Assembly: GCA_965178125.1 (NCBI GenBank)
Contig: OZ237751.1
Location: 1,054,001-1,118,000 of the forward strand
Length of the DNA stretch: 64,000 bases
DNA from: Bilabrum cf. latius
Lineage: Eukaryota
Direction of reading: 5' to 3'
Shown: positions 46,778 through 64,000 of the stretch, in pieces
Numbering within the stretch: position 1 is the stretch's first letter
Layout of the letters: each line of letters starts with the position of its first letter
Program-made: the position numbers and the translations under genes
Notes under the pieces: generated by a model
Seen by the model: the letters and a program-made list of their open reading frames with translations, nothing else
Told to the model about the DNA's origin: nothing
The model's database searches: none

Positions 46778-47553
46778 TATCTAATATAAAGTCAGGGACA
46801 GGGTCGGGGAAAAAATATTTTCATCTTCAATATTTGTCGAAAAACGACGTGCTACGATCTCGGCAACTACAGGTGATATGAAGACCGTTCAAACTGCATC
46901 GGGACGGCCTGGGGGCACAACATGGGCCAAATGTTCCCCAGGTTCCGTTCTGGCCGCGCGGCGCCGATATGGGTGTATGAAGAATTTCACACCGAAAAAC
47001 GACGTGCTACGATCTCGGCAACTACAGGTGATATGAAGACCGTTCAAACTGCATCGGGACGGCCTGGGGGCACAACATGGGCCAAATGTTCCCCAGGTTC
47101 CGTTCTGGCCGCGCGGCGCCGATATGGGTGTATGAAGAATTTCACACCGAAAAACGACGTGCTACGATCTCGGCAACTACAGGTGATATGAAGACCGTTC
47201 AAACTGCATCGGGACGGCCTGGGGGCACAACATGGGCCAAATGTTCCCCAGGTTCCGTTCTGGCCGCGCGGCGCCGATATGGGTGTATGAAGAATTTCAC
47301 ACCGAAAAACGACGTGCTACGATCTCGGCAACTACAGGTGATATGAAGACCGTTCAAACTGCATCGGGACGGCCTGGGGGCACAACATGGGCCAAATGTT
47401 CCCCAGGTTCCGTTCTGACCGCGCGGCGCCGATATGGGTGTATGAAGAATTTCACACCGAAAAACGACGTGCTACGATCTCGGCAACTACAGGTGATATG
47501 AAGACCGTTCAAACTGCATCGGGACGGCCTGGGTGCATAACATGGGCCAAATG
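46778..47553 (-). mobile_element. Telomere-associated element E1 (leader + ~4.5 type-A 155-bp repeats)
   Basis: Invariant leader after GGG, 155-bp period, distal end ATG|TTAGGTAGGGTTTAGGG. Mobility and strand are inferred from E6/E11. Confidence 0.65.
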
Positions 47554-47953
47554 TTAGGTAGGGTTTAGGGTTAGGGTTAGGTTAGGGTTAGGGTTAGGGT
47601 TAGGGTTAGGGTTAGGGTTAGGGTTAGGGTTAGGGTTAGGGTTAGGGTTAGGGTTAGGGTTAGGGTTAGGGTTAGGGTTAGGGTTAGGGTTAGGGTTAGG
47701 GTTAGGGTTAGGGTTAGGGTTAGGGTTAGGGTTAGGGTTAGGGTTAGGGTTAGGGTTAGGGTTAGGGTTAGGGTTAGGGTTAGGGTTAGGGTTAGGGTTA
47801 GGGTTAGGGTTAGGGTTAGGGTTAGGGTTAGGGTTAGGGTTAGGGTTAGGGTTAGGGTTAGGGTTAGGGTTAGGGTTAGGGTTAGGGTTAGGGTTAGGGT
47901 TAGGGTTAGGGTTAGGGTTAGGGTTAGGGTTAGGGTTAGGGTTAGGGTTAGGG

Positions 47954-48729
47954 TATCTAATATAAAGTCAGGGACAGGGTCGGGGAAAAAATATTTTCAT
48001 CTTCAATATTTGTCGAAAAACGACGTGCTACGATCTCGGCAACTACAGGTGATATGAAGACCGTTCAAACTGCATCGGGACGGCCTGGGGGCACAACATG
48101 GGCCAAATGTTCCCCAGGTTCCGTTCTGGCCGCGCGGCGCCGATATGGGTGTATGAAGAATTTCACACCGAAAAACGACGTGCTACGATCTCGGCAACTA
48201 CAGGTGATATGAAGACCGTTCAAACTGCATCGGGACGGCCTGGGGGCACAACATGGGCCAAATGTTCCCCAGGTTCCGTTCTGGCCGCGCGGCGCCGATA
48301 TGGGTGTATGAAGAATTTCACACCGAAAAACGACGTGCTACGATCTCGGCAACTACAGGTGATATGAAGACCGTTCAAACTGCATCGGGACGGCCTGGGG
48401 GCACAACATGGGCCAAATGTTCCCCAGGTTCCGTTCTGGCCGCGCGGCGCCGATATGGGTGTATGAAGAATTTCACACCGAAAAACGACGTGCTACGATC
48501 TCGGCAACTACAGGTGATATGAAGACCGTTCAAACTGCATCGGGACGGCCTGGGGGCACAACATGGGCCAAATGTTCCCCAGGTTCCGTTCTGACCGCGC
48601 GGCGCCGATATGGGTGTATGAAGAATTTCACACCGAAAAACGACGTGCTACGATCTCGGCAACTACAGGTGATATGAAGACCGTTCAAACTGCATCGGGA
48701 CGGCCTGGGTGCATAACATGGGCCAAATG
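47954..48729 (-). mobile_element. Element E2, copy of E1 (period 1176)
   Basis: Same variants (CTGACC in the 4th repeat, GGGTGCATAAC) and same junction as E1. Confidence 0.65.
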
Positions 48730-62554: not shown

Positions 62555-62927
62555 TGGTTTGGGTTTTAGGTTTGGGTTTAGGGGGTTAGGGTTAGGGTTA
62601 GGGTTAGGGTTAGGGTTAGGGTTAGGGTTAGGGTTAGGGTTAGGGTTAGGGTTAGGGTTAGGGTTAGGGTTAGGGTTAGGGTTAGGGTTAGGGTTAGGGT
62701 TAGGGTTAGGGTTAGGGTTAGGGTTAGGGTTAGGGTTAGGGTTAGGGTTAGGGTTAGGGTTAGGGTTAGGGTTAGGGTTAGGGTTAGGGTTAGGGTTAGG
62801 GTTAGGGTTAGGGTTAGGGTTAGGGTTAGGGTTAGGGTTAGGGTTAGGGTTAGGGTTAGGGTTAGGGTTAGGGTTAGGGTTAGGGTTAGGGTTAGGGTTA
62901 GGGTTAGGGTTAGGGTTAGGGTTAGGG

Positions 62928-64000
62928 TATCTAATATAAAGTCAGGGACAGGGTCGGGGAAAAAATATTTTCATCTTCGAATTTTGACAAAATCCTGCGG
63001 GATACGATCTCGGCAACTACAGGAGATATGAAGACCGTTCAAATTGCATTGGGACGGCCTAGGGCCACAACATGGGGCAAATGTTCCCCAGGTTCCGTTT
63101 TTGACGCGCGGCGCCAATATTGGGCCTTGAAGATTTTCATGCTGAAATCCTGCGGGATACGATCTCGGCAACTACAGGAGATATGAAGACCGTTCAAATT
63201 GCATTGGGACGGCCTAGGGCCACAACATGGGGCAAATGTTCCCCAGGTTCCGTTTTTGACGCGCGGCGCCAATATTGGGCCTTGAAGATTTTCATGCTGA
63301 AATCCTGCGGGATACGATCTCGGCAACTACAGGAGATATGAAGACCGTTCAAATTGCATTGGGACGGCCTAGGGCCACAACATGGGGCAAATGTTCCCCA
63401 GGTTCCGTTTTTGACGCGCGGCGCCAATATTGGGCCTTGAAGATTTTCATGCTGAAATCCTGCGGGATACGATCTCGGCAACTACAGGAGATATGAAGAC
63501 CGTTCAAATTGCATTGGGACGGCCTAGGGCCACAACATGGGGCAAATGTTCCCCAGGTTCCGTTTTTGACGCGCGGCGCCAATATTGGGCCTTGAAGATT
63601 TTCATGCTGAAATCCTGCGGGATACGATCTCGGCAACTACAGGAGATATGAAGACCGTTCAAATTGCATTGGGACGGCCTAGGGCCACAACATGGGGCAA
63701 ATGTTCCCCAGGTTCCGTTTTTGACGCGCGGCGCCAATATTGGGCCTTGAAGATTTTCATGCTGAAATCCTGCGGGATACGATCTCGGCAACTACAGGAG
63801 ATATGAAGACCGTTCAAATTGCATTGGGACGGCCTAGGGCCACAACATGGGGCAAATGTTCCCCAGGTTCCGTTTTTGACGCGCGGCGCCAATATTGGGC
63901 CTTGAAGATTTTCATGCTGAAATCCTGCGGGATACGATCTCGGCAACTACAGGAGATATGAAGACCGTTCAAATTGCATTGGGACGGCCTAGGGCCACAA
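62928..64000 (-). mobile_element. Element E12, type-B, runs off the window
   Basis: Leader at 62928 followed by type-B 155-bp repeats. Confidence 0.65.

What the first reader, a model, noticed from the sequence alone, without database searches (positions are those of the whole stretch)
46778..64000. Polarised telomere-attached elements with the signature of telomere-primed retrotransposition
Seen: 12 of 12 elements start at the identical base after a perfect GGG (GGG|TATCTAATATAAAG...). Their distal ends fall at five different depths (45, 776, ~1110, ~1220, ~2800 bp) and are followed by TTAGGG. The only ORF faces the chromosome interior and is cut at its 5' side. Known: endonuclease-deficient Penelope-like elements (Athena, Coprina, Terminons) prime reverse transcription on the telomeric G-strand, giving fixed 3' ends, 5' truncation capped by telomerase, 3' tandem repeats and coiled-coil ORFs; HeT-A/TART show the same polarity. 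Inference: repeated cycles of element addition and telomerase capping. No RT is visible here, so the family is unassigned and may be new.
Basis: partly seen in the sequence, partly recalled or inferred. Interest (0 to 1): 0.8.

Follow-up and report, generated by a model that had tools for sequence, protein, structure and literature searches.

The report
Two-gene elements parasitising protist telomeres
Many chromosome ends of this single-celled eukaryote carry head-to-tail stacks of a mobile element wedged between telomere repeats; it carries two genes of unknown kind but no recognisable reverse transcriptase, and seems to spread mainly by DNA copying between chromosome ends.

Summary
They show five distal junctions, multiplied by tandem duplication. 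They are truncated members of a genome-wide family: 200 of 200 exact leaders directly follow perfect TTAGGG repeats. Long copies (13 to over 31 kb) carry satellites and two divergent orphan genes, ORF1 (about 513 aa) and ORF2 (2,328 aa), both open once TAG is read as Gln. No reverse transcriptase or hammerhead was found in 149 segments. Related families B and C share ORF1 at about 19-36% identity, and B shares ORF2 at 24%, yet all start GGG|TATC. The 50-bp leader is about 14-fold more conserved than the next 170 bp, so the end is a constrained cis-site. Distal ends look like telomerase healing. DNA-level events are evident: triplicated blocks, blocks shared between chromosomes, and a cut through a secondarily inserted Polinton-like element. 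Best reading (0.55): a Y'-like telomere parasite spread by telomere-primed DNA copying plus breakage and healing. An element-encoded joining enzyme is the bold alternative (0.14).

The parts
45860..46192 (.). 43-bp C-rich minisatellite at the innermost chromosome/telomere junction
46214..46777 (+). first internal telomere tract, 94 perfect TTAGGG
46778..46827 (+). 50-bp conserved leader (same at all 12 starts; E5/E10 keep only 45 bp): candidate cis-site
46778..47555 (+). E1: leader + 4.6 copies of 155-bp satellite type 1, cut and capped (26 nt imperfect repeats)
47954..48731 (+). E2, identical to E1
49130..49907 (+). E3, identical to E1
50348..58132 (+). first copy of a 7,785-bp five-element block (E4-E8 with their tracts), repeated three times to the contig end
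50348..51579 (+). E4 (1,232 bp)
51646..51690 (+). E5, 45-bp leader only
52004..54798 (+). E6: leader, 8.9 x 155-bp, 3' part of ORF1, capped by 32 nt of imperfect repeats
53702..54798 (-). C-terminal ~365 codons of ORF1 (basic/acidic low-complexity region, helical tail); open through two TAG read as Gln; conserved N-terminal domain missing
55167..56273 (+). E7: leader + 155-bp satellite type 2 (130/155 identical to type 1)
56608..57738 (+). E8, same distal junction as E7
58133..59352 (+). E9 (copy of E4)
59419..59463 (+). E10 (copy of E5)
59777..62553 (+). E11 (copy of E6, 18 bp shorter)
61475..62553 (-). ORF1 fragment in E11
62928..64000 (+). E12 (copy of E7), runs past the window

Best explanation
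A selfish, telomere-resident DNA element family that works like yeast Y'. (1) A chromosome's G-rich 3' end invades the perfect TTAGGG tract in front of an element, on the same or another end, and copies through it (break-induced or D-loop replication). Every copy therefore begins at the same base after GGG and faces the same way [transfer shown by shared blocks; the pathway is inferred]. (2) Breaks or aborted copying cut the element at scattered depths, and telomerase caps the cut, often sloppily [capping signature shown; cause of the cut shown for one case, inferred for the rest]. (3) The healed end is invaded again, giving head-to-tail stacks, and unequal exchange or rolling-circle copying multiplies whole blocks [duplication shown]. 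(4) The 50-bp leader is a selected cis-site, probably bound by the element's own proteins to promote or protect this copying [conservation shown; binding inferred].
For: 7.8-kb block x3 with 0-4 substitutions and near-equal tract lengths (11/11/11, 50/50/50, 56/57/57); a 13.4-kb three-element stretch on C12R and C38R differs by 8 substitutions; one 1,452-bp truncated unit is identical on C12R and C40L with different neighbours. 8 of 78 distinct junctions occur in more than one region, 2 of these involving an unplaced contig. A family-C copy is cut inside a Polinton-like insert that is interspersed genome-wide (100% match elsewhere), then capped: a cut made in DNA. Four segments start inside the element after a tract, one at a telomere-like hexamer within the leader. 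ORF1 alleles are mosaic. No RT in 149 segments, and none of 84 RVT_1 hits lies in an array I fetched. In-frame seeds at 33 of 50 distal junctions vs 22.4 expected (mean 1.12 vs 0.67; 2 of 2,000 simulations), and more than 6 nt of imperfect repeat at 36 of 59. All five ORF starts examined (ORF1 of A, B, C; ORF2 of A, B) have an acceptor-like CAG 1-7 nt before the ATG; 1 of 33 long host ORFs fit the pattern, plus one with no gap. This hints at 5'-UTR introns, for ORF1 on the would-be RNA template strand. Y' and MoTeR arrays are known to grow this way (PMC13177704 introduction; PMC7367193 passages).
Against: 70 of 78 distal junctions were seen in one region only, as independent retro-additions would give. 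Passive inheritance does not by itself explain why families with ~19-36% ORF1 identity keep the phase and the TATC start, nor a leader at 1.7% divergence beside 24%; RNA 3'-end recognition explains this naturally. No helicase or recombinase motif was recognised in ORF2, unlike Y'. The ORF1 intron has no proven donor site. The genome has several RT classes that could act in trans.
Confidence: 0.55

Rival explanations
1. Telomere-primed reverse transcription, by a non-autonomous Terminon/MoTeR2-like element. An inward-running RNA ending in leader + (CCCUAA)n pairs with the G-overhang; an RT encoded elsewhere (non-LTR RT, TERT, or an unassembled distal ORF) copies it; incomplete cDNA is capped by telomerase; DNA duplications are secondary.
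For: Perfect repeats before 200 of 200 exact leaders and at least 4 before 92 of 92 fuzzy ones; leader about 14-fold more conserved than the flank; same start in three diverged families; many private, mostly short truncations down to 45 bp; ORF1 faces inward like Athena ORF1; five long copies run off contig ends, so the true distal end is unseen. The Terminon description matches the array layout (PMC6431247 passage).
Against: No RT in 459 kb of segments, although the control detects other RT classes only at E 0.004-0.9. No hammerhead. The 7-kb ORF2 is antisense to the template. Templates would have to span 13-31 kb of tandem arrays. No pile-up of ends at a promoter is apparent in the list of 38 ends. 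One cut is demonstrably post-insertion. None of 21 sampled RT loci looked Penelope-like by motif reading.
Confidence: 0.28
2. Element-encoded DNA strand transfer. ORF1/ORF2 nick the element at GGG|TATC and join its 5' end to the telomere's free 3'-OH, one-ended as in rolling-circle transposition (recalled for IS91/Helitrons), or by site-specific recombination into the repeat as in TATE. This gives a fixed start, variable ends and telomerase capping without RNA.
For: Junction phase and TATC, GTCA and AGG[GA]TCGG blocks are shared by A, B and C (read); both genes are kept in the same divergent layout in A and B; ORF1 is under purifying selection; family D has a weakly related large ORF in the opposite orientation, as if either end could be joined.
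Against: No HUH, tyrosine recombinase, helicase or polymerase similarity in Pfam, PHROGs or PDB sequences; the ORF1 domain model is all-helical; homology of D to A is not significant; no inverted leader or fixed distal end found.
Confidence: 0.14
3. Assembly artefact: chimeric or over-duplicated reads created the arrays.
For: Bacterial-looking DNA directly follows telomere tracts at several contig ends; an equal-length telomere patch in one C14R copy looks like a consensus artefact; the x3 blocks could be over-expanded.
Against: Contigs of two runs from different studies cover all 30 bins of a 10-kb long copy (one run may be the source sample); 9 intact ORF1 alleles with dS up to 0.58; strict polarity.
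Confidence: 0.03

Closest known systems
Saccharomyces Y' elements (PMC13177704: abstract and introduction read)
   Same: Protein-coding elements in tandem between interstitial telomeric tracts, 0 to several per end, internal tandem repeats, spread by recombination/BIR; the large ORF faces the telomere (Y' orientation recalled).
   Different: Y' has discrete length classes and a helicase; here the ends are cut at dozens of depths, there are two divergent orphan genes, and four families coexist.
Terminons / Athena / Coprina EN- Penelope-like elements (PMC6431247 passages; PMC8557442 introduction)
   Same: Up to tens of kb, fixed proximal end on G-rich repeats, distal truncation capped by telomeric repeats, head-to-tail chains, accessory ORFs.
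   Different: Their defining RT and 3' hammerhead were not found; the largest ORF is antisense to the would-be template.
MoTeR1/MoTeR2 of Magnaporthe (PMC7367193 passages)
   Same: TTAGGG telomeres, one orientation, truncated copies with in-frame seeds (17 of 23 there; 33 of 50 here), higher-order repeats with preserved tracts ascribed to D-loop/BIR or rolling circles.
   Different: MoTeR1 encodes an RT; no such partner was found among families A-D.
TATE of Leishmania braziliensis (PMC6681497 passages)
   Same: [quoted passage not shown]
   Different: TATE encodes RT and a tyrosine recombinase; neither was detected here.
C. elegans TALT (PMC4595603 abstract) and Chlamydomonas Sultan (PMC8287924 passages)
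   Same: Blocks associated with telomere-like sequence copied among chromosome ends by DNA mechanisms.
   Different: TALT is host DNA amplified without telomerase; Sultan is a non-TE repeat whose telomere-like seed faces the telomere. Here TERT is present and the unit carries its own selected genes.

Membership tests
EN- Penelope-like elements (Athena/Coprina/Terminon) | PLE-clade reverse transcriptase in the element | tested here: not met
   No Pfam family in ORF1/ORF2 or the B/D ORFs; no hit at E<=1 of RT profiles built from this genome in 4,488 frames of 149 segments. Limits: modest cross-class sensitivity, no PLE-specific profile available, five long copies run off contig ends.
EN- Penelope-like elements (Athena/Coprina/Terminon) | Hammerhead ribozyme next to the 3'-terminal telomeric repeats | tested here: inconclusive
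   Rfam, 40 kb of four loci: 0 matches at E<=1; core regex in the first 700 nt of all segments: 1 hit, on the wrong strand. Minimal hammerheads may escape both.
EN- Penelope-like elements (Athena/Coprina/Terminon) | Fixed end joined to G-rich repeats, one polarity, distal truncation with telomere caps, head-to-tail chains | tested here: met
EN- Penelope-like elements (Athena/Coprina/Terminon) | RNA intermediate ending in reverse-complement telomeric repeats | not testable with these tools
   Only assembled contigs were laid.
Telomere-specific non-LTR retrotransposons (MoTeR, HeT-A/TART, SART/TRAS) | Non-LTR RT/endonuclease in an autonomous member of the array | tested here: not met
   the RVT_1 hit nearest an end (C37) lies in unique sequence inside the first tract.
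Telomere-specific non-LTR retrotransposons (MoTeR, HeT-A/TART, SART/TRAS) | 3' poly(A) tail at the junction (HeT-A/TART; recalled) | tested here: not met
   The junction reads TTAGGG|TATC with no T-run.
Y'-like subtelomeric DNA elements | Tandem protein-coding units separated by interstitial telomeric tracts and exchanged between ends by recombination | tested here: met
Y'-like subtelomeric DNA elements | Helicase ORF | tested here: not met
   No Pfam hit and no Walker A motif in ORF2 of A or B.
Y'-like subtelomeric DNA elements | Replication origin / extrachromosomal circles | not testable with these tools
   Needs bench work.
TATE/DIRS tyrosine-recombinase elements | YR + RT + RNase H domains | tested here: not met
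Rolling-circle transposons (Helitron and kin) | HUH endonuclease and/or Pif1 helicase | tested here: inconclusive
   No sequence hit; no fold of family A's ORF2 was attempted, and the model of family D's large ORF failed (pLDDT 28).

The most novel reading that the evidence does not exclude
An old, self-propagating class of telomere-resident DNA elements whose two orphan proteins recognise the TATC leader and join or prime element DNA directly onto the telomeric 3' end, without RT, transposase, recombinase or helicase of any known family. It has diversified into at least three or four coexisting families.
Probability: 0.2. Interest if true: 0.92.

Novelty: new variant of a known kind. Interest (0 to 1): 0.7.

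Why it matters
The layout usually taken as the fingerprint of telomere-primed retrotransposition (fixed proximal end, ragged telomere-capped distal ends) occurs here, genome-wide, in elements with no detectable RT. Either that fingerprint can be made by DNA copying alone, which is a caution for annotating telomeric arrays, or these elements borrow an RT or use an unknown enzyme. Each outcome is testable in one organism that has telomerase, plain ends and loaded ends side by side. ORF1 and ORF2 are selected orphan proteins and candidates for new telomere-acting factors.

Tried and rejected
Homologue searches found nothing outside this organism: ORF2 600-2328, ORF1 1-170, family D ORF, all limited to near-length proteins; ORF2 640-1830 against 1.84 billion representatives gave 5 hits, all 95-100% fragments, each on one contig of 12,766 bp. 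ORF1 alignment in metagenome and viral contigs, ORF2 alignment in viral contigs, and the leader pattern in metagenomes: none. PDB sequences and PHROGs: none. ORF1 N-domain model: pLDDT 60, all-helical; no Foldseek match at E<=0.001, best VIA Z 4.5, uninformative. Family D model unusable. No protein-language-model look-alike result was obtained for ORF2. No RNA holder listed, which is no evidence on expression. The RVT_1 hit near the C37 end is an interspersed non-LTR element, not part of the array. The Polinton-like integrase/helicase/polB stretch in family C was considered as the family's engine and rejected: it is an interspersed family. A weak RT-profile hit on C21L is a minisatellite frame. 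ARAGORN and Rfam do not call the tRNA-like stretch. Homology of D's small ORF to ORF1 and of D's large ORF to A's ORF2 is not significant. The C14R telomere patch (replaces 111 bp by a similar length) is not used as evidence because it may be a consensus artefact. Earlier scan notes: nothing. Literature: 8 searches listed no description of this family; the host lineage was not determined, so a paper on its genome could have been missed. No supplements were read.

Full report
1. Observation. The window is the right end of contig C17 of a 48.6-Mb, 111-contig eukaryotic assembly. Twelve leaders occur, all on the + strand, each after 11-94 perfect TTAGGG repeats. The five depths reported are right. 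They are not twelve events: E1-E3 are identical, and E4-E8 form a 7,785-bp block present three times with 0-4 substitutions and nearly the same tract lengths.

2. Genome-wide picture. The exact 20-bp leader occurs 200 times, and the pattern with two perfect repeats in front also gives 200 (120 +, 80 -). In the first 100 places listed, copies near contig starts are on - and those near contig ends on +, except one internal array on C14. In 34 fetched regions, chosen mostly because they had hits, 149 segments follow a tract: 109 family A (this window), 19 B, 6 C, 7 D and 8 others (3 start inside an element, 5 are unrelated DNA). Of 10 further ends fetched without selection, 4 carry elements, 5 are plain telomeres and 1 is undetermined, so the elements are dispensable for an end.

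3. Genetic code. 57 of the 59 RVT_1 matches with an internal stop have TAG only. TAG stands at the Gln of the RT motif GxxQGSP in two loci where a third has CAG, and TERT is open through 8 TAGs. I read TAG as Gln; this is inferred from sequence.

4. Anatomy of long copies. Leader, 155-bp satellite, subtype-specific satellites, ORF1 (inward-facing, 509-526 aa), a tRNA-like stretch in some subtypes, ORF2 (telomere-facing, 2,328 aa), then 839-bp or 22-bp repeats. Closed copies reach 14.4 kb; one open copy exceeds 31 kb. Nine ORF1 alleles from 21 copies are all intact, with N-terminal dN/dS mostly 0.3-0.5 (range 0.26-0.91) and patchy, mosaic divergence. E6/E11 hold the C-terminal ~365 codons and have lost the conserved domain. 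One contig of a run only guessed to be RNA skips 363 nt upstream of ORF2 with GT..AG ends, not seen in the other three runs laid. The skipped DNA begins GTGAGT and ends CCGCAG: a weak hint that ORF2 is transcribed and spliced toward the telomere.

5. Deep family, fixed end. A profile of B/C ORF1 finds A's ORF1 at E=1.9e-7 (17-19% identity of A to B, 35% of C to B). B's ORF2 matches A's at 24% over 666 aa, E=1e-13. Yet A, B and C all begin GGG|TATC. Across 29 distinct A starts the first 50 bp diverge by 1.7% and the next 170 bp by 24%. The end is therefore a constrained cis-site. Family D starts differently (TTACAG), and its 2,082-2,142-aa ORF faces inward and is weakly similar to B's ORF2 (E=2e-5), not significantly to A's.

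6. No engine found. ORF1, ORF2 and the B/D ORFs match nothing in Pfam, PHROGs or PDB sequences and have no relatives in the protein collections. RVT_1 finds 84 loci. I read 21 of them; by recalled motifs and without a tree they are non-LTR (many CRE-like) or DIRS/Ngaro-like, and none looked Penelope-like. Profiles built from these RTs and TERT give no hit at E<=1 in 459 kb of segments, but detect other RT classes only at E 0.004-0.9, so a very distant RT could be missed. No hammerhead was found. One TERT gene is present.

7. Distal ends. Of 74 distinct ends, 59 had a longer donor copy and 50 a readable phase. 33 of 50 have an in-frame seed of 1-4 nt against 22.4 expected, and 36 of 59 begin with more than 6 nt of imperfect repeat. 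This fits de novo telomerase addition, as described for MoTeRs (17 of 23 seeded; PMC7367193 passages). It does not separate cDNA truncation from breakage.

8. DNA-level events. Blocks are triplicated within ends; a 13.4-kb stretch is shared by C12R and C38R; one truncated unit is identical on C12R and C40L with different neighbours. A family-C copy is capped in the middle of a Polinton-like insert (rve integrase, helicase, protein-primed polB by Pfam) that is a genome-wide interspersed family, so that cut was made in DNA after insertion. Four segments start inside the element. Acceptor-like sites precede all five ORF starts examined but only 1-2 of 33 long host ORFs; for ORF1 that would be an intron on the would-be template strand, but no donor is proven and PLEs can keep introns (PMC8557442 figure legend). 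Against a purely DNA reading: 70 of 78 junctions are private to one region, and the conserved end is most simply explained by an enzyme that recognises it.

9. Verdict. It works most like Y' or the recombinational side of MoTeR arrays: telomere-primed DNA copying, breakage, telomerase healing, block amplification (0.55). It looks like a Terminon but fails the RT test, so it is not filed as a PLE; a trans-acting RT remains possible (0.28). An element-encoded joining enzyme is the boldest reading (0.14 as the main mechanism; 0.2 that the orphan proteins act directly at the junction). Eight literature searches listed no description of this family. Papers seen: passages of PMC6431247, PMC7367193, PMC6681497, PMC8287924; introductions of PMC13177704 and PMC8557442; abstract of PMC4595603. 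The host lineage was not determined.

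Noticed in passing
whole genome; window 10359-24221, 28240-42099; L088: Nuclear code appears to read TAG as Gln (57 of 59 stop-containing RT matches are TAG-only; TERT and two 4,620-aa ORFs are open through 8-10 TAGs). One literature search found no paper on such a code in stramenopiles; the lineage is unknown.
   Followed up: partly
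window 10359-24221 and 28240-42099: Two tandem paralogous ORFs of 4,620 and 4,619 aa, apparently without introns, the second ending in a multi-pass membrane region.
   Followed up: no
window 43100-45064 and 44979-45668: Last genes before the telomere: a 654-aa ORF (TAG=Gln) and a 229-aa frame, not similar to the element ORFs in a local blast.
   Followed up: no
L012 about 1870-1955 (minus strand): tRNA-like stretch with A- and B-box-like motifs and a T-run, about 230 bp upstream of ORF1; absent in one subtype, partly replaced by an 11-bp satellite in others; not called by ARAGORN or Rfam. Possible Pol III barrier or SINE relic.
   Followed up: partly
L098 97-5750; G000 C28, C14, C9, C25, C22 and others: AT-rich Polinton-like family (integrase + chromodomain, helicase, protein-primed polB) using TAG=Gln, with inverted terminal matches about 15-25 kb apart at many interior sites; one copy sits in a family-C element.
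   Followed up: partly
ends of C14L, C15L, C20R, C40L, C35L, C27R, C30L; contig C82: Unrelated DNA, mostly bacterial-looking by my reading of its ORFs, directly follows telomere tracts or joins a satellite. Probably chimeric reads; real capture of foreign DNA at ends is not excluded.
   Followed up: no
L065, L089, L095, L101-102, L119: Family D: 8-10-kb telomere-attached units with a 2,082-2,142-aa inward-facing orphan ORF; a 53-bp minisatellite like the one at its distal end also lies at the innermost junction of many chromosome ends, suggesting old D relics.
   Followed up: partly
L042-L043 (C14 about 701-704 kb): A telomere-element array in the middle of a contig: a mis-join or a real internalised end.
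   Followed up: no
L017-L019 (C25L, 14.4-kb copy): 22-bp satellite arrays flank the ORF1-ORF2 cassette in inverted orientation in this subtype.
   Followed up: no
L107 (C20L): A 1,910-aa telomere-facing ORF and a short ORF1-like remnant just inside a plain telomere.
   Followed up: no
window 46194-46213: Short C-strand-like stretch (CCCTAA...CTAACCCC) directly before the first telomere tract.
   Followed up: no
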